UHGV virus genome: UHGV-0130923
Direction: 5' to 3' (one strand)
Length of the DNA stretch: 11,181 nt
DNA from: a virus
The notes under the pieces were generated by a model. That model saw nothing but the letters and a program-made list of their open reading frames with translations, was not told where the DNA came from and made no database searches. A program made the position numbers and the translations under genes. This document shows, one piece after another, positions 1 through 11,181 of this stretch (position 1 is its first letter; each line of letters starts with the position of its first letter).

Positions 1-1
1 G

Positions 2-124
2 CTGTACGTTTCGCCGATTGTTTCCGGTGAGGTTATCCGTTCCCGTGGCGGCTCCACCTCTGAATTTACGCCGGGATATGTCAAACCCAAGCACTTAGCA
101 TGGCTTTCTGAGGCTTTCGTGTAG
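2..124 (+). CDS. E: Lambda E-like major capsid protein, N-terminal-side fragment of the helper prophage gene (runs off the window start, interrupted by the island)
   Basis: Frame starting at nt 2 reads LYVSPIVSGEVIRSRGGSTSEFTPGYVKPKH, then nine unrelated residues (LAWLSEAFV) and a TAG at 122-124. The conserved part matches lambda gpE residues ~52-82 as I recall them. The reading frame changes character exactly at the direct repeat. Confidence 0.8.
   Translation: MYVSPIVSGEVIRSRGGSTSEFTPGYVKPKHLAWLSEAFV
84..93. other. attL core: left copy of the 10-bp direct repeat AACCCAAGCA
   Basis: Identical 10-mer at 84-93 and 10843-10852, each sitting on the K-P-K-H codons of the split capsid gene. An integrase gene begins ~160 bp inside the left copy. 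Confidence 0.75.
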
Positions 125-202: not shown

Positions 203-241
203 TGTGTGTTGCAATCATCTCTGTATTGCAGCTTGTATTGC
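203..241. promoter_or_regulatory. attL arm-type repeats (putative integrase arm-binding sites) overlapping the int leader
   Basis: TGTGTTGCAA (205-214), TGTATTGCAGC (223-233) and TTGTATTGC (233-241). The same TGTATTGCAGC / ATGTATTGCAAC motifs recur at 10745-10769 just inside the right end. Confidence 0.5.
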
Positions 242-1493: not shown

Positions 1494-1721
1494 ATGAAAA
1501 AAATGGCAATTGTTGATAAAAAGGGTCTGGAGTACATTCCTAACATTGACCGAATGATCCGTGAGAAAGAATGTCGGGAGCTAACCACTCTTGCGAACAG
1601 CACACGCTGGAAGCTGGAGAAGGAAGGAAAATTTCCTAAGCGGATCAAGATTGGTTCCACTGCTGTTGCATATCGTCTTTCAGAAGTGCAGGCATGGATT
1701 CGAGGTGAGTGGGTAGTTTAA
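1494..1721 (+). CDS. alpA: AlpA-family helix-turn-helix protein (putative excisionase or transcriptional regulator)
   Basis: ATG at 1494 lies 2 nt after the int stop with AAGG ~10 nt upstream. The product contains ELTTLANSTRWKLEKEGKFPKRIKIGSTAVAYRLSEVQAWI, which fits the AlpA/Xis-like HTH pattern. Confidence 0.65.
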   Translation: MKKMAIVDKKGLEYIPNIDRMIREKECRELTTLANSTRWKLEKEGKFPKRIKIGSTAVAYRLSEVQAWIRGEWVV

Positions 1722-1746
1722 ATTATCTCAGAATAAAATATTATGA

Positions 1747-1782
1747 ATTACTGATTTGAGAATTTGTACTCAAATCAGTAAT
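1747..1782. terminator. Bidirectional intrinsic terminator hairpin between convergent genes
   Basis: 14-bp perfect inverted repeat ATTACTGATTTGAG / CTCAAATCAGTAAT (1747-1760 and 1769-1782) with an 8-nt loop and AT-rich flanks. It sits between the end of the plus-strand alpA-like gene and the end of the minus-strand membrane-protein gene. Confidence 0.6.
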
Positions 1783-1821
1783 AACATTCTTTATAAGAGA
1801 TTAAATCCAAATAAAGAGTAA

Positions 1822-2328
1822 TCATATACCGGGGTGCATTGCATCCCACTGAATATGCTGATGTTTTTTTTCTGTTTCTATCCTTTTTTCAATAAGTTGT
1901 TGTATATTTTTACAGTACAATTTGTGTGTGATGTTATTATCGTAAGCCTGATATAGCAACGTCAATGTTGATGCTATGAAACATGCAGAAAGAAAATGAA
2001 CTAGTACATGTGAGCGTTTTTTGGTTGTCCATGATGCATTCGCTTGTGAAATATAAATCATTCTGAGAATGATAATGATGATAGACAGTAACAGACCACT
2101 CAATAAAATAAGTATTGGGTTTGCGTATTTAATTAATGGTTGAGAGCAAAAAACTATTATAGCTCCTGTGACTGCGTATGAGAAAAAGGAGTAATTAAAC
2201 TTCTTACTCCTTCTCTCAAGTATTTTAATTTCATCTTGTGTGGGGGTTTTAGATGCCTCTAATATAAGTTTATTAAATGTTTCTGTTATCTTGTTTTTTG
2301 TGTTTGTGGCTATTTTTTTTAGATTCAT
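1822..2328 (-). CDS. Hypothetical membrane protein, about three predicted transmembrane helices (AT-rich accessory cargo)
   Basis: 168-aa ORF with a AAGGGAG ribosome-binding site upstream of the ATG. Hydrophobic stretches FFSYAVTGAIIVFCSQPL, ILILLSGLLLSIIIIIL and VLVHFLSACFIASTLTLL. The gene and its flanks (about 1722-2640) are visibly more AT-rich than the rest of the island. Confidence 0.55.
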   Translation of the reverse strand: MNLKKIATNTKNKITETFNKLILEASKTPTQDEIKILERRSKKFNYSFFSYAVTGAIIVFCSQPLIKYANPILILLSGLLLSIIIIILRMIYISQANASWTTKKRSHVLVHFLSACFIASTLTLLYQAYDNNITHKLYCKNIQQLIEKRIETEKKHQHIQWDAMHPGI

Positions 2329-2678
2329 AGCATTCTAACTCCCTTAACTTATTTATTACTTTCTCTTTATGATAAGAGAGGGGAATGACTTGGTAAAGTG
2401 ATTTGTCATTAATAATGATAATCCTTGCGATAAATATTTCTGCAAGTTATTTACCTGTTTGTTGCTATCTTGTTAAGCGTTGGGTGTGGTTTATGTTTGG
2501 AGCGACTTTATTTAATCGTGATTTTATGGATTTATATTTATATCCTGTAAGATAAGCGCATGTTAGTTCAGGAGTAGTGTCAGATAAAATTATTCGGAGT
2601 AGAACTACCTTTTCTGTTTATTGCCAGTATTTACATAGCAATGCGCCGTAGTTACTCACATCACGGCGCTGATACTAA

Positions 2679-2981
2679 TTATTCAGATTCTTTGGCTTTA
2701 CGCCGCTGGAGTTCTTCACGAGCGACGGCTACGAGTTGCCCGATTTCCTCCGCTGCCTTGATGCCGATTTGTTCGACCTTAGCTAAGGCATCCAGTGAAG
2801 ACACGAGGGGATTTTCTCCGCTTCCTTCTGCCTGGCGGCGGGCGATCTCACCGCGCATGGCGGTTACTATGAATCCGGCGTTGCTTTCGCCGTCCAGTTT
2901 TACGGATTCCATGCCCTCCATAACATCGTGGGGAACCCTGATCGTTGTCATTTGCGATTTTGCATTTTTGTATACAGACAT
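2679..2981 (-). CDS. YlcI/YnfO-family (DUF3950-like) small protein, candidate island regulator
   Basis: 100-aa ORF. The segment TTIRVPHDVMEGMESVKLDGESNAGFIVTAMRGEIARR parallels the pattern of E. coli prophage YlcI (IRFPNQMIEQINIALDQKGSGNFSAWVIEACRRR) as recalled from memory. It is transcribed divergently from the plus-strand operon. Confidence 0.55.
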   Translation of the reverse strand: MSVYKNAKSQMTTIRVPHDVMEGMESVKLDGESNAGFIVTAMRGEIARRQAEGSGENPLVSSLDALAKVEQIGIKAAEEIGQLVAVAREELQRRKAKESE

Positions 2982-3104: not shown

Positions 3105-3189
3105 TGATCGATTCATAAAAACGACGAAACCCGGCAGTGCGCGAACACTAACCGGGCTTCTAACCAAACCGTTAAACGAGGTAACGATT

Positions 3190-3555
3190 ATGGCTGGAAC
3201 ACAGCATACCCAAACTCACCCTAAATTTATATACACCTTTGTGGCACTACACCACGACCGCATGGCAGATGGAGCAACTACGGTACATGTTGCCGCTGAC
3301 ACGCTGGTTGATGCCCGCAAGATGGTTAAGGAGATGGGCTATACTGCGGCTTTCTGGAAAGGGCGTGAAGAAAACACGCTGTTTATTCAGAAATGCGAAA
3401 ACAATTTCATCTGGCGTTTTATCGCCCTGAGCACCGCACAACCACGCGTAATACACATCGTGGCCACCAGCGAACAGGAAGCCCGCCAGCAATCCCCGGC
3501 TGGTTGCGTGATGGTATTCGCCGCCCGTATTCGTCAGGAGGTATGCCGTGCTTAA
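3190..3555 (+). CDS. Hypothetical protein, first gene of the plus-strand early operon
   Basis: ATG at 3190 preceded by GAGGT at 3179-3183. This is the in-frame internal start of track ORF 2641..3555, whose upstream part overlaps the opposite-strand gene and the operator region. Confidence 0.5.
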   Translation: MAGTQHTQTHPKFIYTFVALHHDRMADGATTVHVAADTLVDARKMVKEMGYTAAFWKGREENTLFIQKCENNFIWRFIALSTAQPRVIHIVATSEQEARQQSPAGCVMVFAARIRQEVCRA

Positions 3556-4358: not shown

Positions 4359-6110
4359 ATGAAGAGCGCACCGAACCTAAAAAAACAGCCGCGCGACAAG
4401 ATGACAGAAGTTATTATTTTTGCGGGTAGTGATGCGTGGAGCCATGCGAAAGAGTGGCAGGAATGGGCGGGTAAACATATTGCCGCCGACGATGTGCCGC
4501 CTGTCGTGCTGGCTGATGAGCAACTGAAAAATATCACCGATTACCGGATCATTGATGAAGATCGTCAGTGTGTGCGTGTTTACCGCGCAGGACATATCAC
4601 AGAGCACAGCATGACGCAGATTGTTACGTTACTGGCTGTGGCTGGAGTGAAGACCGTACACGAATACGCGGGGATTACTGACACCAGCCCCGTGGATTTA
4701 TCCGACCAGTTGCCGCGACTCAAAGAGGAATGCGAGCGTGGGGAAAGTCTGGTGCTTAATCTTCCGACGAAGCAAAAGGCGCAACTTTCACAGATGGCAG
4801 ACAGTGAACGTGCACAACTACTTGCCGATCGCTTTGATGGTGTGTGTGTTCATGCAGAAAGTGAAATCGTCCACGTATGGCGCGGCGGGGTATGGTGTCC
4901 GGTCAGCACAATGGAGCTGAGCCGCGAAATGGTGGCGATCTATTCAGAGCACAGGGCCACATTCAGCAAGCGTGCAATTAATAACGCCGTGGAGGCGTTA
5001 AAAGTTATTGCCGACCCCATGGGGGAGCCGTCCGGTGATTTGCTACCGTTCGCCAATGGTGTGCTTGACCTGAAAACGGGGGAATTTTCCCCGCACTCGC
5101 CGGAGAACTGGATCACCACGCACAACGGCATTGAGTACACGCCACCAGCACCAGGGGAGAACATCCGCGACAACGCGCCAAACTTTCATAAATGGCTTGA
5201 TCACGCAGCCGGAAAAGACCCACGCAAGATGATGCGTATATGTGCCGCGCTGTACATGATTATGGCGAACCGGTACGACTGGCAGATGTTTATTGAGGCC
5301 ACCGGAGACGGCGGGAGCGGAAAGAGTACATTCACGCACATAGCCAGCCTTCTGGCAGGGAAACAGAACACGGTAAGCGCTGAAATGACTTCGCTTGATG
5401 ATGCTGGTGGGCGTGCTCAGGTTGTCGGGAGTCGTCTTATCGTCCTGGCTGACCAGCCGAAATATACAGGCGAAGGCACGGGCATCAAGAAAATCACGGG
5501 CGGCGACCCCGTGGAAATAAACCCGAAATATGAAAAGCGTTTTACGGCGGTAATCAGGGCGGTGGTGCTGGCTACCAACAATAACCCGATGATATTCACC
5601 GAACGGGCCGGAGGTGTGTCACGTCGTCGCGTAATTTTCCGCTTCGACAATATCGTTAGCGAGGCAGAAAAGGACAAGGATTTACCGGAGAAGGTCGCGG
5701 CTGAAATCCCCGTGATTATCCGCAGATTGCTGGCAAACTTTGCTGATCCAGAAAAGGCGCGACATTTGTTGATTGAACAGCGCGACGGTGAAGAAGCACT
5801 GGCGATAAAGCAACAGACGGATCCGGTTATTGAGTTTTGCCAGTTTCTGAATTTTCTGGAGGAAGCGCGCGGCCTGATGATGGGTGGCGGTGGCGATTCC
5901 GTGAAGTACACGACCAGAAACAGCCTTTACCGCGTCTATCTGGCGTTTATGGCATACGCAGGCAGAAGCAAGCCGCTAAACGTGGCTGATTTCAGCAAGG
6001 CCATGAAGCCAGCGGCGAAAGTTTACGGATGTGAATATATAACGCGCAGGGTTAAAGGACTTACGCAAACCAATGTGACAACAACAGAGGATTGCGACGC
6101 GTTTTTATAA
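4359..6110 (+). CDS. Primase-helicase family replication protein (P4 alpha C-terminal / D5-like NTPase)
   Basis: 583 aa with a Walker A P-loop GDGGSGKST and a downstream hydrophobic strand ending in acidic residues (RLIVLADQP), Walker B-like. AGGGGG ribosome-binding site before the ATG at 4359. An iteron array lies immediately downstream. Confidence 0.75.
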   Translation: MKSAPNLKKQPRDKMTEVIIFAGSDAWSHAKEWQEWAGKHIAADDVPPVVLADEQLKNITDYRIIDEDRQCVRVYRAGHITEHSMTQIVTLLAVAGVKTVHEYAGITDTSPVDLSDQLPRLKEECERGESLVLNLPTKQKAQLSQMADSERAQLLADRFDGVCVHAESEIVHVWRGGVWCPVSTMELSREMVAIYSEHRATFSKRAINNAVEALKVIADPMGEPSGDLLPFANGVLDLKTGEFSPHSPENWITTHNGIEYTPPAPGENIRDNAPNFHKWLDHAAGKDPRKMMRICAALYMIMANRYDWQMFIEATGDGGSGKSTFTHIASLLAGKQNTVSAEMTSLDDAGGRAQVVGSRLIVLADQPKYTGEGTGIKKITGGDPVEINPKYEKRFTAVIRAVVLATNNNPMIFTERAGGVSRRRVIFRFDNIVSEAEKDKDLPEKVAAEIPVIIRRLLANFADPEKARHLLIEQRDGEEALAIKQQTDPVIEFCQFLNFLEEARGLMMGGGGDSVKYTTRNSLYRVYLAFMAYAGRSKPLNVADFSKAMKPAAKVYGCEYITRRVKGLTQTNVTTTEDCDAFL

Positions 6111-6120
6111 TTTTAGACAA

Positions 6121-6353
6121 AAGCCCTCTACCTCCTCTACCTAAAGAAAATAAATATATATTATTCAATATGATAAGCAGGTAGAGGGCTAGGTAGAAGG
6201 CAAATAAAAGCCCTCTACCTCCTCCACCATGATTAAGGTCATTTGTGAGGGGCGGGTAGAGGATGGGTAGAGGGCCCCGAAAGCCCTCTACCCATCTGAA
6301 AGCCGCGCCATTACTGACCTGAAAGATGATTAGGTAGAGAGGTAGAGGAGGTG
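6121..6353. repeat. Iteron array, putative island origin of replication
   Basis: About 11 copies of CCTCTACC / GGTAGAGG in alternating orientation (for example 6124-6141, 6180-6200, 6210-6227, 6254-6274, 6284-6293, 6333-6351), with an AT-rich stretch at 6142-6180, directly after the primase-helicase gene. Confidence 0.65.
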
Positions 6354-6396: not shown

Positions 6397-6654
6397 ATGC
6401 ACACATCAGGAAAACTGAACAAACATATAAAGCCACATTACCGCGCCCTTGATATGGCTGAACACTGGCTAAGGGTGGCGATTAAGGCAATAGATCGCAA
6501 CGCCGGGGAAGGATACGCGAAAGCACATCCCGAACTGATAAGCGCATTCATGACAACGGCGGCTGCAAACTTTGCCACGCTGACCGAACGGGAGATTGCC
6601 GAAGCGGAGGAAGTGACAACCATCAATATTAAGTCCGGAGAGCAGGCAGCATGA
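6397..6654 (+). CDS. Hypothetical protein
   Basis: 85-aa ORF with GAGGGGG upstream; its stop overlaps the start of the SSB-like gene (ATGA). Confidence 0.45.
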   Translation: MHTSGKLNKHIKPHYRALDMAEHWLRVAIKAIDRNAGEGYAKAHPELISAFMTTAAANFATLTEREIAEAEEVTTINIKSGEQAA

Positions 6655-7073
6655 CGGCGCAAATATCAGTTTACGGGAGGTTGGTGGACGACCCGCAGAC
6701 AAAACAGACCAGCAAGGGCATCCCCATGACGCTGGCGCGTATGGCGGTATCACTGCCCTGCAGTCAGTCGGATGACGGTCAGGCGACGATGTGGTTATCT
6801 GTCCTGGCGTTTGGCAGACAAGCCGACACGCTGGCAAAGCATCACAAAGGCGAACTCCTGAGCGTGGCGGGTAACATGCAGGTGAGCCAGTGGACTGGAC
6901 AGAACGGTGAAACGCGGCAGGGCTGGCAGGTTATCGCAGACAGTGTAATCAGTGCCAGAACGGCGCGACCGGGCGGCAAAAAAGGTCAACAGGGCCAGGC
7001 TACTGACGCACTGAACAGGGCAAAACAACAGTCGGGGAATGATGATCCGTACGGCGATAATATACCGTTTTAA
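6651..7073 (+). CDS. ssb: Single-stranded DNA-binding protein-like (OB fold with an acidic C-terminal tail)
   Basis: 140 aa. The N-terminus ISVYGRLVDDPQ and the spaced W/G/F pattern resemble SSB OB folds, followed by a Gly/Gln-rich linker. The C-terminal DDPYGDNIPF resembles the E. coli SSB tail DFDDDIPF. Confidence 0.6.
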   Translation: MTAQISVYGRLVDDPQTKQTSKGIPMTLARMAVSLPCSQSDDGQATMWLSVLAFGRQADTLAKHHKGELLSVAGNMQVSQWTGQNGETRQGWQVIADSVISARTARPGGKKGQQGQATDALNRAKQQSGNDDPYGDNIPF

Positions 7074-7119: not shown

Positions 7120-7290
7120 GCTACATAAATCCCGACCAAAGGAAGTAAATACATTAACACGAATTATCAGCACTGAAGTTGTCACGGCAGATTTTATACA
7201 ACATTGCACTTGGTTGCATGTATTCGCATAGCAAATATCGGTGATAGCATATATCCACAATCATTTTTAATGAATGCAAAGAGGATGCGT

Positions 7291-8331
7291 ATGGTTGATT
7301 TATATTCGCCTGCCCAGCTTGTGCAGGTGGCTAATGCTGAAGATGTGCAAAAAAAATTAAATGCGTTGTTTACCAGTTTGTTTTTCACTCGCTCGGTAAT
7401 GTTTGAATCGAGAGACATTATTCTTGATACGATCGACGATCCAAATATCCCGATCGCGGCGTTTTGCTCTCCTATGGTGGGCAGTAAGGTTTCACGAGAT
7501 GAGGGATACGAATCAAAGACAATTCGTCCAGGCTATATGAAGCCGAAAAGCAGCATTGATCCAAATAAGTTAGCTGTGCGCCCTGCGGGTGTATCACCTG
7601 AGCAATACAATGCTTTTGGAGCGCGTAATATTAAAGTTAAACAGGCGATTGTAAATCAGGCTAAAGCTATTCGTGCACGTATTGAATGGCTTGCCGTTCA
7701 GGCAATCACAACGGGGAAAAATATCATTGAGGGCGATGGTATTGAACGTTATGAGCTGGACTGGAATATTAAACCACAAAATATCATCACTCAGTCTGGC
7801 GGTGCTGAGTGGTCAGGTAAGGATAAAGAAACTTTTGATCCAAATGATGATATTGAGAGCTACGCAGAATTTAGTGAGGGCGTCACTAATATCATCATTA
7901 TGGGCGGTAATGTATGGAAGAAATACCGTTCATTCAGAGCGATAAAAGAGGCTCTGGATACCCGTCGTGGTTCTAATGCCGAACTGGAAACGGCCCTTAA
8001 AGACCTTGGTGATTCGGTGAGTTTTAAAGGGTATATGGGCGATGTTGCGATTGTTGTATACAGCGGGCGTTATACCGACGAGGACGGAACTGAAAAACAT
8101 TTCCTTGATCCTGATTTGATGGTGCTTGGCAATACGGCTCTTCAGGGGATTGTCGCCTATGGCGGTATTCAGGATCCGGAGCTAATCCGAATGGGGCTGA
8201 CTAAAGCCGAACTTGCACCGAAAAACTATATTGTGCCTGGTGATCCGGCTATTGAATATGTGCAGACACATTCAGCACCACAGCCAATACCGGCCCGCAT
8301 CAATCGTTTTGTTACCGTTCGCATTGGCTAA
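7291..8331 (+). CDS. Island-encoded divergent homolog of the lambda major capsid protein gpE
   Basis: ATG at 7291 with AAAGAGGA upstream. The product aligns with lambda gpE along its length: ITQSGGAEWSGKDKETFDPNDDIESYA vs ITQSGGTEWSKRDKSTYDPTDDIEAYA, TRRGSNAELETALKDLG vs TRRGSNSELETAVKDLG, GDVAIVVYSG and MVLGNT shared. It is far more divergent than the flanking helper fragments. Confidence 0.85.
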   Translation: MVDLYSPAQLVQVANAEDVQKKLNALFTSLFFTRSVMFESRDIILDTIDDPNIPIAAFCSPMVGSKVSRDEGYESKTIRPGYMKPKSSIDPNKLAVRPAGVSPEQYNAFGARNIKVKQAIVNQAKAIRARIEWLAVQAITTGKNIIEGDGIERYELDWNIKPQNIITQSGGAEWSGKDKETFDPNDDIESYAEFSEGVTNIIIMGGNVWKKYRSFRAIKEALDTRRGSNAELETALKDLGDSVSFKGYMGDVAIVVYSGRYTDEDGTEKHFLDPDLMVLGNTALQGIVAYGGIQDPELIRMGLTKAELAPKNYIVPGDPAIEYVQTHSAPQPIPARINRFVTVRIG

Positions 8332-8340
8332 GGGGGAGCA

Positions 8341-8682
8341 ATGGCTACTCATTACACTGAACTCATGGCTGGCACTGAAGCACTGGTGACTACGCTGGGG
8401 ATATTTTCAGCTAATAAAGGGGTAATTCCTGCATTTACGCCACTGATGCAGGAAGATGCAACAGGTGCACTGGTGGTATGGGATGGTTCGAGCGTAGGTA
8501 AAGCGGTTTATGTTTCCGCTGTACAAATCGACACCGCGAAAAAAACACAGGCTCAGGTCTATAAGACAGGTGTCTTAAATGTTGATGCTCTGAACTGGCC
8601 TGAGTCTGTAAAAGAACTGTCAGTAAAGATTGCAGCGTTTGTTGGCTCAGGTATTTCTGTTCAGCCGCTGGCTCGTGTGTAA
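8341..8682 (+). CDS. Island-encoded homolog of the lambda head decoration protein gpD
   Basis: 113 aa with an AAGGGGGAG ribosome-binding site. TPLMQEDATGALVVWDGSS...YKTGVLNVDALNWPE...AAFVGSGISV parallels lambda gpD TPLMLDTSSRKLVAWDGTT...YKSGTFRYEDVLWPE...TAFAGTAISIV. Confidence 0.8.
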   Translation: MATHYTELMAGTEALVTTLGIFSANKGVIPAFTPLMQEDATGALVVWDGSSVGKAVYVSAVQIDTAKKTQAQVYKTGVLNVDALNWPESVKELSVKIAAFVGSGISVQPLARV

Positions 8683-8693
8683 AGGGGGATACA

Positions 8694-9077
8694 ATGCAGA
8701 ATCTTTACAATGACCTTAAGCCAATTGCCGAAATGATGTATCCGGATCCAGCAGTAGAGGAATTAAAGGCTATTGCTGACAAAATGCGTTTAAGCGAGCG
8801 TCTTGTTGATATGAATCAGGTGATGGAACTTACAACCCTGAGTCGTCGTACACTGCTAAACCTTGAAGCACGTGGAGAGTTCCCCGAACGCGTGCAGGTT
8901 ACGGAAGGGCGTAAGGCCTGGTATTTAAGCGAAGTGATCGACTGGATAAACAATATTCCGCGCGCTTCTGAATATTGCCGCGTACCTGTCCCAAAAAAGC
9001 CAGATGCGGCGCTATGCCTCAAGATTGAGCGTGTACGCCGCAATGCGCGGGATGGTCGCTATAAGCTGATTGGTTGA
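8694..9077 (+). CDS. Second AlpA-family HTH protein, directly upstream of cos
   Basis: 127 aa with an AAAGGGGGA ribosome-binding site. Contains MELTTLSRRTLLNLEARGEFPERVQVTEGRKAWYLSEVIDWIN, an AlpA-like motif. Co-oriented and tightly spaced with the E and D homologs. Confidence 0.6.
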   Translation: MQNLYNDLKPIAEMMYPDPAVEELKAIADKMRLSERLVDMNQVMELTTLSRRTLLNLEARGEFPERVQVTEGRKAWYLSEVIDWINNIPRASEYCRVPVPKKPDAALCLKIERVRRNARDGRYKLIG

Positions 9078-9103
9078 TGAAATTAGGGCCCGTTCTGGCT
9101 GGC

Positions 9104-9167
9104 GGGTCCTTTCCGGCGATCCGACAGGTTACGGGGCGGCGACCTCGCGGGTTTTCGCTATTTATGA
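9104..9167. other. Lambda-type cos site (cosQ-side sequence, cosN GGGCGGCGACCT at 9134-9145, first cosB element)
   Basis: GGGTCCTTTCCGGCGATCCGACAGGTTACG-GGGCGGCGACCT-CGCGGGTTTTCGCTATTTATGA matches the lambda genome ends as I recall them (right end ...CCGACAGGTTACG, left end GGGCGGCGACCTCGCGGGTTTTCGCTATTTATGA...). Sequence after 9167 no longer matches lambda cosB. A Nu1-like gene follows ~150 bp downstream, as in lambda. Confidence 0.8.
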
Positions 9168-9293
9168 GCATTTTTAGGGGACTGGTGGTGGTTTTGTTGT
9201 TCGCTATATCTGTATGAATAATAAGAGAAAAACACAATCAACACACCAACCTGAAACAGTAATTAAGTTGTGGTATCAATGAAATTGCACCTG

Positions 9294-9821
9294 ATGAACA
9301 AAAAAAACATGGCAAAAAGTTGCCGTGTAAGCGCCACTGCGTTCGATAAGTGGGGAGTGATTCCCGTCGAGCGTAAGGGCCGCGAGGCGTTTTATGATGT
9401 CGCCAGTGTAATAGATAATCGGGTTAACAATGCAATCAGCCAGATTACAAACGAAACGGGCGAGATTGATGATGATGAACTCCTACGAGTCAGGATCAGA
9501 TTGCTGACAGCACAGGCAGAGGCGCAGGAGCTTAAAAACGAGCGCGAACGCGGCGACGTTATTGATACAGCGTTTTGTATATACGTGCTTTCAAAACTGG
9601 CGAGTCAGATTTCTTCAATCATGGACAGCCTGCCGCTTGCCATGACAAGGAAGTTTCCCGACATGAAGCCGTCTATGCTGGATGGACTGAAAAAAGAAGT
9701 TATCAGAGCCTGTAACGCATGCGCAAAACTTGACGAAAACATACCGCTGATGCTGTCCGATTATCTGATGGAAACTGCCGGAAACGTACCGGATAAGTTG
9801 CAGCTGAATAAAGATAAGTAA
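9294..9821 (+). CDS. Nu1-like terminase small subunit
   Basis: LTAQAEAQELKNERERGDVIDTAFCIYVLSKLASQISSIMDSLPLAMTRKFP...LDENIPLMLSDYLMETAG parallels lambda Nu1 LTRAQADAQELKNARDSAEVVETAFCTFVLSRIAGEIASILDGLPLSVQRRFP...LDELIPGLLSEYIEQSG. Start chosen at ATG 9294 (MNKKNM...) by analogy with Nu1 MEVNKKQ; ATG 9279 and GTG 9270 are alternatives. Confidence 0.75.
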   Translation: MNKKNMAKSCRVSATAFDKWGVIPVERKGREAFYDVASVIDNRVNNAISQITNETGEIDDDELLRVRIRLLTAQAEAQELKNERERGDVIDTAFCIYVLSKLASQISSIMDSLPLAMTRKFPDMKPSMLDGLKKEVIRACNACAKLDENIPLMLSDYLMETAGNVPDKLQLNKDK

Positions 9822-10114: not shown

Positions 10115-10744
10115 ATTCCTGATATTCAGGAAAACCACGAATCCGGGGGTTTTACTGGCGCGGTGTACACGGTGGAACGTATAGCGTTACCTGACTTATT
10201 GCATTGTAAAAAGTTGAAAGGCACGGCCTGTAAGATGGGATGTTGTGAGTAGTTTAAAGCTACCCGCAAATTCTTTCGTTGTGCTGGCACAGGCGGTTAA
10301 ACCGTCGGTAACTGGATAATCCCCACTGGGGGAAAAGCTGGCTACATCCCTCACATCTGAGGACTGATAACGCAAAATTGCGTTGGCTGGCAGAGTGCAA
10401 ATTTGCACGATGGCCTAACCCATTGATTCTTTCGAAAACCCCCATTGGGGGAGAACGGGGGAATAAACCTGACTCATTGATTTTTCCACAATCCTTAATT
10501 TGAGGAAGCTGGATAGTTGCACTACCCAAAAAGTGCAGTACCCACATAGCTGCTTAATAGCGTTTATTTTTTCCGCACACCTCAAATCTGAGAAGGCCGG
10601 AATGATGACATGGCAGGATTATGATTCCTTGATTTCAAGGAGTCCTCCAGTGTGAAAATGAAATTATCTGGGCTGGTGGGTGAGTTGCTGATCTGCAACT
10701 CGGCTATGAAACTTAATAATCGAACAGCATGTAAATTCATTTCT

Positions 10745-10769
10745 GTGTATTGCAGCATGTATTGCAACA
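10745..10769. promoter_or_regulatory. attR arm-type repeats (putative integrase arm-binding sites)
   Basis: TGTGTATTGCAGC (10745-10757) and ATGTATTGCAAC (10758-10769), the same motif family as at 205-241 in the left end. Confidence 0.5.
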
Positions 10770-10842
10770 TAGTCATTCTGGTAGAGATTATGCTCTATTT
10801 TTCCTCTTATATCATTCACATACTTACGTCATTGACTCATGT

Positions 10843-10852
10843 AACCCAAGCA
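10843..10852. other. attR core: right copy of the 10-bp direct repeat AACCCAAGCA
   Basis: Identical to 84-93; the capsid reading frame resumes immediately (P-K-H-E-V-N-P-Q). Confidence 0.75.
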
Positions 10853-11181
10853 TGAGGTGAATCCGCAGATGACCCTGCGTCGCCTGCCGGATGAAGATCC
10901 GCAGAATCTGGCGGACCCGGCTTACCGCCGCCGTCGCATCATCATGCAGAACATGCGTGACGAAGAGCTGGCCATTGCTCAGGTCGAAGAGATGCAGGCA
11001 GTTTCTGCCGTGCTTAAGGGCAAATACACCATGACCGGTGAAGCCTTTGATCCGGTTGAGGTGGATATGGGGCGCAGTGCGGCGAACAACATCACACAGT
11101 CCGGTGGCACGGAGTGGAGCAAGCGCGACAAGTCCACGTATGACCCGACCGACGATATCGAAGCCTACGCGCTGAACGCCA
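10845..11181 (+). CDS. E: Lambda E-like major capsid protein, distal fragment of the helper prophage gene (runs off the window end)
   Basis: Frame from 10845 reads PKHEVNPQMTLRRLPDEDPQNLADPAYRRRRIIMQNMRDEELAIAQVEEMQAVSAVLKGKYTMTGEAFDPVEVDMGRSAANNITQSGGTEWSKRDKSTYDPTDDIEAYALNA, which continues lambda gpE from residue ~80 as I recall it. An in-frame TAA at 10842-10844 immediately precedes it. Confidence 0.8.

What the first reader, a model, noticed from the sequence alone, without database searches (positions are those of the whole stretch)
1722..2640. AT-rich cargo locus with an uncharacterised membrane protein
This stretch is visibly lower in GC than the rest of the island, is set off by a strong bidirectional terminator, and is the only minus-strand block besides the YlcI-like gene. 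It encodes a ~168-aa protein with about three transmembrane helices. Phage satellites are known to carry anti-phage or superinfection-exclusion genes at variable hotspots, so this is a candidate; the function is unknown.
Basis: inference. Interest (0 to 1): 0.55.

Follow-up and report, generated by a model that had tools for sequence, protein, structure and literature searches.

The report
Orphan membrane gene in satellite hotspot
This AT-rich stretch is a swappable cargo cassette in a known kind of E. coli phage satellite; it carries an uncharacterised small inner-membrane protein that may block other phages, but nobody has tested that and this copy has lost its conserved tail end to a frameshift.

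Summary
Window 1722-2640 has 30.8% GC, against a minimum of 40.7% in any other 919-bp window. It carries a minus-strand ORF with three hydrophobic helices and a stable hairpin between the convergent alpA and this ORF.

The island is a helper-embedded PICI satellite, a described kind, inserted in the major capsid gene of a lambdoid prophage. The slot after alpA is a true hotspot. Among 18 islands with near-identical int-alpA, homology breaks at 1700-1726 and at least 9 different contents follow, including a TIR protein (PDC-S35) and putAbiC. About 39% of such islands (68 of 175 genomes) carry this gene.

Two corrections:
- The 168-aa ORF is an A7-to-A8 frameshift allele of a 178-aa protein, and it loses two of the six invariant residues (F159, C164).
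- The protein belongs to a tiny orphan family: 10 hits among 1.8 billion representatives, and none in Pfam, PADLOC, PHROGs or PDB. Members also occur as opposite-strand morons in prophage head operons.

My best guess is an envelope-acting superinfection-exclusion protein. That is inferred, not shown. This is an ordinary kind of locus holding an uncharacterised gene.

The parts
1494..1721 (+). alpA (AlpA-family excisionase/regulator). This is the conserved left flank of the hotspot; homology among sister islands ends at 1700-1726.
   Evidence: Pfam Phage_AlpA 3.1e-15; breakpoints from blastn against 17 islands; start taken from the RefSeq annotation of L001.
1747..1782 (.). Perfect 14-bp inverted repeat with an 8-nt loop, between the convergent alpA and the cargo ORF. 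It is a probable terminator and travels with the cassette.
   Evidence: dG -16.7 and -17.2 kcal/mol; z -4.6 and -5.2. It lies to the right of the homology breakpoint.
1822..2328 (-). Cargo ORF as it stands in the window: 168 aa, three TM segments. The last 14 residues come from the wrong frame.
   Evidence: The exact 168-aa sequence occurs on 32 contigs, against 508 contigs for the main 178-aa allele.
1791..1871 (-). Ancestral C-terminal coding segment, now out of frame. It encodes the conserved NISIFSGMQCTPV...NLL tail; the ancestral TAA stop lies at 1791-1793.
   Evidence: Alignment with the L001, L007 and L009 copies; invariant F159 and C164; stop checked.
1864..1871 (.). T8 homopolymer (A8 in the coding sense) where intact alleles have A7. 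This is the frameshift site.
   Evidence: The diverged copy in L012 also has A8.
2339..2397 (-). Putative expression signals of the ORF: -35 TTTACC (2397-2392), -10 TATCAT (2374-2369) and Shine-Dalgarno AAGGGAG (2345-2339), 10 nt before the ATG at 2328.
   Evidence: Consensus scan, 9 of 12 matches; sequence read. These are consensus matches only, not shown to function.
2329..2678 (.). AT-rich (0.34 GC) non-coding spacer between the YlcI-like gene and the cargo ORF. It has no credible ORF and no Rfam match.
2643..2669 (-). G+C-rich hairpin just downstream of the YlcI-like stop codon, a possible terminator. It coincides with the GC step at about 2640.
   Evidence: dG -14.3 kcal/mol.
2679..2981 (-). 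100-aa YlcI/YnfO-family (RHH-like) gene, leftward member of the divergent regulatory region. This 100-aa version accompanies the cargo ORF in all five cassette-bearing islands examined.
   Evidence: NCBIfam NF041551 8.5e-20; phrog_6522.
3190..3555 (+). Icd-like gene, the conserved right flank. Homology with islands carrying other cargo resumes at 3137-3160 or at 3408.
   Evidence: RefSeq annotations of sister islands; blastn; start mapped.

Best explanation
SHOWN. The stretch is a self-contained, horizontally exchanged cassette: hairpin, ORF, AT-rich promoter spacer, and usually a 100-aa YlcI-like gene. It occupies the variable accessory slot between alpA and the regulatory/replication module of a helper-embedded PICI satellite. 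That satellite sits inside the lambda-E-like capsid gene of a lambdoid prophage.

The ORF is a real gene for a protein of about 178 aa with three membrane helices. It belongs to a very small orphan family found in other satellites, as opposite-strand morons in prophage head operons, next to an integrase remnant, and once in a chromosomal context. The window copy is an A7-to-A8 frameshift allele that replaces the conserved C-terminal 24 residues.

INFERRED. Topology is N-terminus in the cytoplasm, loop 1 (QPLLKYxNP) outside, loop 2 (K/R-rich, no acidic residues) inside, and a C-terminal domain of about 50 aa in the periplasm. The two invariant cysteines (C139, C164) there would form a disulfide.

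The gene is probably expressed from its own promoter in the lysogen. The most likely function is superinfection exclusion: it acts at the inner membrane and periplasm to stop an incoming phage genome from entering, analogous to P22 SieA or HK97 gp15 but not homologous to them. The divergent patch at codons 78-119 between alleles may set specificity. The frameshifted window copy is probably inactive.
For: Hotspot:
- Left breakpoint at 1700-1726 in 17 of 17 sister islands; right breakpoint at 3137-3160 or 3408.
- At least 9 different contents in the slot, including TIR/PDC-S35 (6.9e-67) and putAbiC (2.8e-16).
- 68 of 175 int-bearing genomes carry the ORF locus.
- The same cassette sits on at least 3 backbones, and the same backbone carries different cassettes.
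- The second slot holds PD-T4-2, AbiJ and PDC-S31.

Real gene and family:
- phmmer against 1.84 billion representatives gave 10 hits, 28-35% identical and 161-175 aa.
- Invariant residues are P71, G78, C139, Q143, F159 and C164.
- AF2 with 13 sequences gave mean pLDDT 81.8.

Moron behaviour:
- P0016 and P0019 lie on the opposite strand between a Mu-F-like head gene and the next head gene in siphophage-type prophages.
- P0009 is in the same zone of another capsid-gene-embedded satellite.
- In 8 of the 9 homologue loci measured, and in the window, the gene is well below its surroundings in GC (0.27-0.39 against 0.43-0.55); in the ninth, a 2-kb contig, there is no dip.

Topology: loop 2 has 1-5 K/R in all 13 members and no acidic residue in 12 of them. 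The Cys pair lies in the net-neutral C-terminal segment.

Own signals: promoter-like site, Shine-Dalgarno sequence, flanking hairpins.

Allelic patch: 39 of 43 nucleotide differences fall in codons 78-119, with 19 nonsynonymous codons.
Against: - No phenotype data exist, and no homology was found to any known exclusion or defence protein. PADLOC, PHROGs, Pfam, NCBIfam and PDB were all negative for all 13 members. hhalign against SieA and gp15 gave probability 0.2%.
- Several slot occupants are also of unknown function, so association is weak evidence.
- One homologue (P0010) sits in an apparently ordinary chromosomal neighbourhood.
- Frequent frameshifted or truncated alleles of 168, 130, 110 and 97 aa could mean the gene is dispensable or decaying.
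- Topology and the disulfide are predictions only.
Confidence: 0.33

Rival explanations
1. Abortive-infection membrane effector. The protein sits inert in the inner membrane. On infection it oligomerises or opens, collapses the membrane potential and kills the cell before phage release, as proposed for RexB, AbiC-like proteins and 2-TM effectors.
For: The same slot holds putAbiC in sister islands and the second slot holds AbiJ. The protein is all-helical and multi-pass, with long helices extending from the membrane. Weak sub-threshold hits of a few members to 2-TM effector families: DUF4231 in 2 members (E 0.021) and Saf_2TM in 1 member (E 0.038). Frequent inactivating alleles would fit a costly or toxic gene.
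Against: There is no sensor domain and no partner gene; the gene stands alone in its prophage and other contexts. The most conserved parts are predicted to face the periplasm, not the cytoplasm where infection would be sensed. BLASTP against the island putAbiC gave E = 2.7. No PADLOC hit for any member.
Confidence: 0.2
2. An accessory moron unrelated to phage defence, for example immunity to a pore-forming bacteriocin, envelope-stress tolerance or a host-colonisation factor. It is carried by satellites and prophages as lysogenic-conversion cargo.
For: Small multi-pass inner-membrane proteins encoded on the opposite strand with their own promoter are also typical of pore-forming-colicin immunity genes (general knowledge). 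One homologue lies in a chromosomal metabolic neighbourhood and another next to umuDC and an Imm42-like gene. The helper prophage itself carries the serum-resistance moron iss. There is no defence-family match.
Against: The slot and its twin at the 3' end are dominated, where annotatable, by defence-type genes. No Pfam colicin-immunity or other family match at E <= 1 was shared by more than 3 of the 13 members.
Confidence: 0.2
3. A satellite or helper life-cycle function, such as lysis timing (holin or antiholin-like) or interference with the helper, rather than cargo.
For: It is a three-TM protein of small size. It lies in what Tommasini et al. call the dynamic regulatory ('Bro') zone. In L018 the homologue is the leftward gene facing the replication operon.
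Against: It is absent from about 61% of islands with the same int-alpA, and those islands are otherwise complete. The predicted N-in, C-out topology with a 45-aa basic N-terminus is the opposite of class I holins. No endolysin or spanin gene is adjacent. It also occurs outside satellites.
Confidence: 0.07
4. A decaying, functionless remnant. The window copy, and perhaps the E. coli lineage of the gene in general, is a pseudogene kept only by hitch-hiking in the cassette.
For: The window allele is frameshifted and loses F159 and C164. Multiple other truncated forms exist. In one complete genome the locus is not annotated as a gene at all (H22).
Against: The intact 178-aa allele dominates: 508 contigs against 32 for the main forms. 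It is 97-99.9% conserved across 67 complete genomes on different backbones. The family keeps invariant residues at 25-35% identity and gives a confident fold.
Confidence: 0.1

Closest known systems
Helper-embedded PICIs (HE-PICI), Phage_cap_E site group (Tommasini, Mageeney & Williams 2023, PMC10111431)
   Same: The island matches the described organisation. It is integrated inside the lambda-E-like capsid gene of a lambdoid prophage. It has an int+AlpA zone, then a dynamic zone, then a primase/SSB replication zone, then a late zone with captured capsid, decoration and Nu1-type TerS genes.
   Different: That paper describes the second zone as dominated by Bro-network proteins and immunity RNAs, and does not discuss defence cargo. 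Here the zone holds a membrane-protein cassette plus a YlcI-like gene. No Bro-N domain and no Rfam C4/isrK match was found.
Accessory and defence hotspots of phage satellites (P4 hotspot, Rousset et al. 2022, PMC9122126; PICI accessory positions, de Sousa et al. 2023, PMC10085698)
   Same: It is a fixed position bounded by conserved genes with rapidly exchanged, AT-rich content, including known defence genes. [quoted passage not shown] Those are exactly the two slots seen here.
   Different: The occupant here is not a recognised defence system, and no activity has been shown.
P22 SieA (superinfection exclusion, 164 aa)
   Same: Similar size, and multi-pass hydrophobic by inspection of the translated sequence. 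It is a single gene on the opposite strand to the neighbouring late genes, with its own promoter.
   Different: No detectable homology (hhalign probability 0.2%; tblastn of three family members against 50,697 phage records found nothing). SieA lacks the conserved Cys-pair C-terminal motif.
HK97 gp15 moron (superinfection exclusion)
   Same: It is annotated as a moron product, with a putative terminator just downstream, inside a late structural operon. That it is an inner-membrane protein blocking DNA entry is from general knowledge. The moron position resembles that of family members P0016 and P0019 in prophage head operons.
   Different: gp15 has 62 aa and lies on the same strand as the tail genes. 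No homology was found.
putAbiC (PF16872) membrane Abi proteins
   Same: An alternative occupant of the very same slot, on the same (minus) strand downstream of a YlcI-like gene.
   Different: No sequence similarity, and no member of the family hits PF16872.

Membership tests
Helper-embedded PICI (HE-PICI), cap_E site group | Integrated within a late gene (major capsid, lambda E cognate) of a prophage | tested here: met
   Window 1-94 and 10831-11181 align to the 5' and 3' fragments of the split capsid gene in five annotated genomes. The translation reads ...GYVKPKH | PKHEVNPQMTLRRLPDEDPQ... across a 10-bp core, AACCCAAGCA, at 84-93 and 10843-10852.
Helper-embedded PICI (HE-PICI), cap_E site group | Inward-pointing tyrosine integrase followed by AlpA | tested here: met
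   Pfam Arm-DNA-bind_3, Phage_integrase and Phage_AlpA.
Helper-embedded PICI (HE-PICI), cap_E site group | Replication zone (primase/D5, SSB) followed by a late zone with captured late genes | tested here: met
   D5_N, DUF5906, SSB, Phage_cap_E, HDPD and Phage_Nu1.
Satellite defence-hotspot cargo | Fixed position between conserved flanks, with different gene content in closely related elements | tested here: met
   Breakpoints at 1700-1726 and at 3137-3408. At least 9 contents in 18 islands. 68 of 175 genomes carry this one.
Satellite defence-hotspot cargo | Known defence genes among the alternative occupants | tested here: met
   PDC-S35/TIR 6.9e-67; putAbiC 2.8e-16. Second slot: PD-T4-2_A/NsnA, AbiJ, PDC-S31.
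Satellite defence-hotspot cargo | The gene itself confers phage resistance | not testable with these tools
   Needs cloning and a phage challenge.
Known defence-system proteins (PADLOC-DB v2) | Match to a defence-protein HMM | tested here: not met
   No hit at E <= 0.1 for the window protein. No hit at E <= 0.01 for any of the 13 family members.
P22 SieA family | Sequence or profile homology to SieA | tested here: not met
   hhalign probability 0.2%. tblastn against all phage records found no match.
HK97 gp15 family | Sequence or profile homology to gp15 | tested here: not met
   hhalign probability 0.2%.
putAbiC / AbiC-like (PF16872) | Pfam PF16872 domain | tested here: not met
   No hit in any member. 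BLASTP against the island's putAbiC protein gave E = 2.7.
SLATT / SAVED-fused 2-TM effector domains | Consistent profile match across the family | tested here: not met
   Only 2 of 13 members touch DUF4231 (best E 0.021) and 1 of 13 touches Saf_2TM (E 0.038), all below the curated thresholds.
Class I holins | Three TM helices with N-out, C-in topology and a place in a lysis cassette | tested here: not met
   The 45-aa N-terminus carries 11 K/R and loop 2 is basic, which predicts N-in, C-out. No endolysin or spanin gene is in the island. Topology is a prediction.

The most novel reading that the evidence does not exclude
The 178-aa protein founds a new family of single-gene, envelope-acting anti-phage proteins shared between satellites and temperate phages. 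In this reading, a disulfide-bonded periplasmic C-terminal domain plus the conserved TM1-TM2 loop block genome entry of competing phages, the recombining patch at codons 78-119 sets specificity, and the A7/A8 tract acts as an on/off switch.
Probability: 0.2. Interest if true: 0.55.

Novelty: new member of a known kind. Interest (0 to 1): 0.33.

Why it matters
If the intact allele protects against phages, it would add a small, single-gene, membrane-level defence or exclusion family that current defence catalogues do not detect. It would also show that the first dynamic zone of helper-embedded PICIs is a defence hotspot, not only a regulatory zone.

In practice, the list of at least nine slot occupants gives a short set of candidates for functional screening; five have no family or defence-model match. 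If there is no phenotype, the locus is just one more uncharacterised AT-rich moron.

Tried and rejected
1. Family libraries. Pfam, NCBIfam, PHROGs and PADLOC gave nothing above threshold for the window protein or for any of the 13 family members. The only hits were sub-threshold TM-compositional ones (DUF443, tandem five-TM, EcsB).

2. Solved structures by sequence or profile: nothing.

3. Structure prediction. AF2 with 6 close sequences failed (pLDDT 44). With 13 diverse sequences it worked (pLDDT 81.8).

5. Wider sequence searches. tblastn of three members against 50,697 phage genomes found no match. The species-representative genome scan found no relatives. The P0009 allele is not present in complete E. 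coli genomes.

7. Toxin-antitoxin pairing with the YlcI-like gene. Rejected as a general model, because homologues in other contexts stand alone. Within E. coli the 100-aa YlcI-like gene does co-travel with the cassette.

8. Rfam scan of the whole window: no RNA family.

9. Literature search for the RefSeq protein accessions: nothing.

Full report
1. WHAT IS IN THE SEQUENCE

The window is a 10.8-kb phage satellite flanked by the two halves of a lambda-E-like major capsid gene. On the plus strand it encodes:
- a tyrosine integrase (257-1492) and AlpA (1494-1721);
- an Icd-like protein (3190-3555) and several small ORFs;
- a D5-type primase (4359-6110) and an SSB (6651-7073);
- its own E-family capsid protein (7204-8331) and a D-type decoration protein (8341-8682);
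- a second AlpA-like protein (8694-9077) and a Nu1-type small terminase (9270-9821).

Only two credible genes lie on the minus strand: the target ORF (1822-2328) and a 100-aa YlcI/YnfO-family gene (2679-2981; NF041551, 8.5e-20).

2. CHECK OF THE OBSERVATION

The stretch 1722-2640 has 30.8% GC. None of the 8426 other 919-bp windows falls below 40.7% (mean 48.0%, sd 2.9), so the dip is real and large.

The ORF has three hydrophobic segments at about 46-62, 71-93 and 108-127.

Between the convergent alpA and the ORF lies a perfect 14-bp stem with an 8-nt loop (1747-1782). Its free energy is -16.7 and -17.2 kcal/mol on the two strands, and no shuffle of the 101-nt context folds as well. It is A+T-rich, with 4 G-C pairs. 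The scan called it a terminator on the plus strand only, so 'strong bidirectional' is generous.

A second hairpin (2643-2669, -14.3 kcal/mol) follows the YlcI-like stop codon and marks the GC step at the right edge of the finding. Upstream of the ORF are a promoter-like site (TTTACC-17-TATCAT, 2397-2369) and a Shine-Dalgarno sequence (AAGGGAG) 10 nt from the ATG. These are consensus matches only.

3. THE WINDOW COPY IS A FRAMESHIFT ALLELE

Database homologues from E. coli are 178 aa and identical to the window protein only up to residue 154. At the DNA level the window has A8 (T8 at 1864-1871 on the plus strand) where the copies in L001, L007 and L009 have A7. The ancestral TAA stop is at 1791-1793, 8 nt from the hairpin.

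The exact 168-aa sequence is on 32 contigs from several sources, and the main 178-aa allele is on 508. A diverged copy in strain DSM 103246 also has A8. The frameshift is therefore a circulating or recurrent allele, not a one-off error. Homopolymer miscalls cannot be excluded for individual assemblies.

Other truncated forms of 130, 110 and 97 aa also exist.

4. THE ISLAND AND THE SLOT

Every related island fetched from complete E. coli genomes lies in the same place: inside the major capsid gene of a lambdoid prophage, in the order rrrD-rzpD-iss-ylcI-nohD-terL-W-portal-S49 protease-D-[capsid 5' fragment]-island-[capsid 3' fragment]-FI-FII-tail.

The window ends align to those capsid fragments, with a 10-bp core (AACCCAAGCA) at 84-93 and 10843-10852. 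This is the 'helper-embedded PICI' of the Phage_cap_E site group described by Tommasini, Mageeney and Williams (PMC10111431). That paper defines four zones: integration, a dynamic 'Bro' zone, replication, and a dynamic late zone.

The finding lies in the second, dynamic zone.
- The int-alpA module occurs in 175 of 5426 complete E. coli genomes at 96% identity or more. The 919-bp locus occurs in 68 of them.
- Against 17 islands, homology stops at window 1700-1726 in every case. It resumes at 3137-3160 or at 3408, except in the four that carry the same cassette.

Slot contents in the 18 islands (including the window):
- the 178/168-aa membrane protein (5 islands);
- a TIR protein matching PADLOC PDC-S35 at 6.9e-67 (2);
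- putAbiC, PF16872 (2);
- DUF2971 plus a SWIM protein (3);
- proteins of 305 aa (2 islands), 265, 273, 241 and 467 aa with no family and no PADLOC match, some accompanied by SWIM or HicB-like genes.

All these fillings are AT-rich (0.35-0.38 against about 0.49).

The cassette is 97-99.9% conserved yet sits on at least three different replication-module backbones, and near-identical backbones carry different cassettes. Exchange is therefore by recombination in the conserved flanks.

A second variable slot, between terS and attR, holds PD-T4-2 (DUF262/NsnA plus HEPN), AbiJ, PDC-S31 and unknowns in sister islands. De Sousa et al. already state that PICI accessory genes lie at exactly these two positions (PMC10085698). 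The hotspot is real but is not a new concept.

5. THE PROTEIN

No Pfam, NCBIfam, PHROGs or PADLOC family matches above threshold.

An exhaustive phmmer search of 1.84 billion cluster representatives found only 10 proteins. Apart from the E. coli alleles these are 161-175 aa and 28-35% identical.

In the 13-sequence alignment six residues are invariant: P71, G78, C139, Q143, F159 and C164. Conserved motifs are QPLLKYxNP between TM1 and TM2, and HDxYCxxLQ...EKNS(S/T)IFNNMxCR in the C-terminal part. The window allele has lost F159 and C164.

None of the 13 members hits PHROGs, PADLOC or PDB. None is found in 50,697 deposited phage genomes.

AF2 with the 13-sequence alignment gives mean pLDDT 81.8 and an all-helical model: helices 3-26, 31-66, 71-94, 100-147 and 152-161. 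Fold searches return only generic helical hairpins.

Charge distribution is consistent across the family. Loop 2 carries 1-5 K/R in every member and no acidic residue in 12 of the 13, and most N-termini are net basic. The C-terminal 43-65 residues are about neutral and hold the invariant Cys pair. From the positive-inside rule, and from the fact that stable disulfides form in the periplasm, I infer N-in and C-out with a disulfide-bonded periplasmic C-terminal domain. This is a prediction.

6. WHERE THE RELATIVES LIVE

- P0009 (35% identical) lies in the same zone of another satellite that is also embedded next to a capsid-gene fragment (L018).
- P0016 and P0019 are opposite-strand insertions between a Mu-F-like head gene and the next head gene in siphophage-type prophages, which is the classic moron position.
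- P0011 lies beside a 200-aa integrase fragment, umuDC and an Imm42-like gene.
- P0010 lies in a chromosomal neighbourhood of metabolic genes.
- P0012 lies among unannotated small genes.

Except in one 2-kb contig where there is no dip, the gene is markedly AT-rich relative to its surroundings, and it always stands alone. The family behaves as a mobile single-gene accessory module, not as a satellite core function.

7. AN ALLELIC PATCH

The two main E. coli alleles differ at 43 of 537 nucleotides. Of these, 39 fall in codons 78-119 (second half of TM2, loop 2, first half of TM3), with 19 nonsynonymous and 6 synonymous codon changes. The remaining roughly 800 bp of the cassette differ at only a handful of sites.

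This looks like a short recombination tract from a diverged homologue, possibly kept by diversifying selection. The substitutions are not adenine-specific, so a DGR is not indicated.

8. HOW IT MOST LIKELY WORKS

Shown: it is hotspot cargo, a real membrane-protein gene, mobile between satellites and prophages, and frameshifted in this window.

Inferred: it is expressed from its own promoter in the lysogen, and its conserved face is periplasmic. The architecture and genomic behaviour resemble known superinfection-exclusion morons such as P22 SieA (164 aa, opposite strand, own promoter) and HK97 gp15. There is no homology to either.

I therefore rank the explanations as follows:
- envelope-level block of phage genome entry: about 0.33;
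- abortive-infection membrane effector: 0.20;
- non-defence accessory function such as bacteriocin immunity: 0.20;
- decaying remnant: 0.10;
- satellite or helper life-cycle role: 0.07.

9. NOVELTY AND VERDICT

The satellite type, its embedding in the capsid gene and the existence of accessory slots are all published. New here are:
- this particular slot of cap_E HE-PICIs is documented as a defence-type hotspot with at least nine fillings;
- the occupant belongs to a tiny, unannotated three-TM family with an invariant Cys pair, shared with prophage morons;
- the window copy is a homopolymer frameshift allele.

This is a reasonable candidate for a functional screen, but its function is unknown and its scope is modest. 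I rate it a new member of a known kind, with interest about 0.33.

Noticed in passing
window 1-94 and 10831-11181; att core at 84-93 and 10843-10852: The whole island is inserted inside a lambda-E-like major capsid gene of a lambdoid prophage, with a 10-bp direct repeat (AACCCAAGCA) at both junctions. All 17 sister islands in complete E. coli genomes are in the same site. This matches the published HE-PICI cap_E group.
   Followed up: yes
window 9102-9174: A 72-73-nt segment just upstream of the satellite's Nu1-type terS is 96-97% identical to the sequence upstream of the helper prophage's own nohD/Nu1 gene (for example L002 1685-1757). It is probably a cos or terminase-recognition site copied from, or shared with, the helper.
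   Followed up: partly
window 10115-10842: The second accessory slot, between the phrog_1561 ORF and attR, holds PD-T4-2 (HEPN+DUF262), AbiJ, PDC-S31 or unknown genes in sister islands. In this window it has no gene that was given a family assignment. The full 731-bp stretch occurs in only 5 complete genomes.
   Followed up: partly
window about 10369-10507: A short element of about 70-140 nt inside the empty second slot recurs at 81-97% identity in about 525 E. coli genomes, including 78 plasmid sites, mostly unannotated. There is no Rfam match. It may be a small repeat or miniature mobile element.
   Followed up: no
window 2090-2215 (codons 78-119 of the cargo ORF): The two main alleles of the cargo gene differ at 39 nucleotides within this roughly 125-nt patch (19 nonsynonymous codons) and are almost identical elsewhere. 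This suggests a recombination tract or diversifying selection over TM2, loop 2 and TM3.
   Followed up: partly
window 6119-6141 and 6206-6228 (weaker copy at 5918-5940): A 23-nt direct repeat (AAAAGCCCTCTACCTCCTCTACC, 96% identical copies 87 nt apart) lies in the intergenic region just after the primase gene. These are candidate iterons of the satellite replication origin.
   Followed up: no
window 218-241 and 10742-10765: A 24-nt direct repeat (92% identical) lies just inside each end of the island, upstream of int and before attR. These are possibly arm-type integrase or AlpA binding sites.
   Followed up: no
window 2679-2981: The YlcI/YnfO-like gene here is a 100-aa version. It accompanies the membrane-protein cassette in all five carriers examined. 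Islands with other cargo have 59-64-aa YlcI-like or HicB-like genes at this position, so the leftward regulator is itself part of the exchanged segment.
   Followed up: partly
L013 5115-5912, L014 5146-5967, L015 5174-5899, L017 5138-6541, L005 9740-10657: Five alternative occupants of the same slot (265, 273, 241, 467 and 305 aa) have no Pfam or PADLOC match. They are further uncharacterised candidates from the same hotspot.
   Followed up: partly
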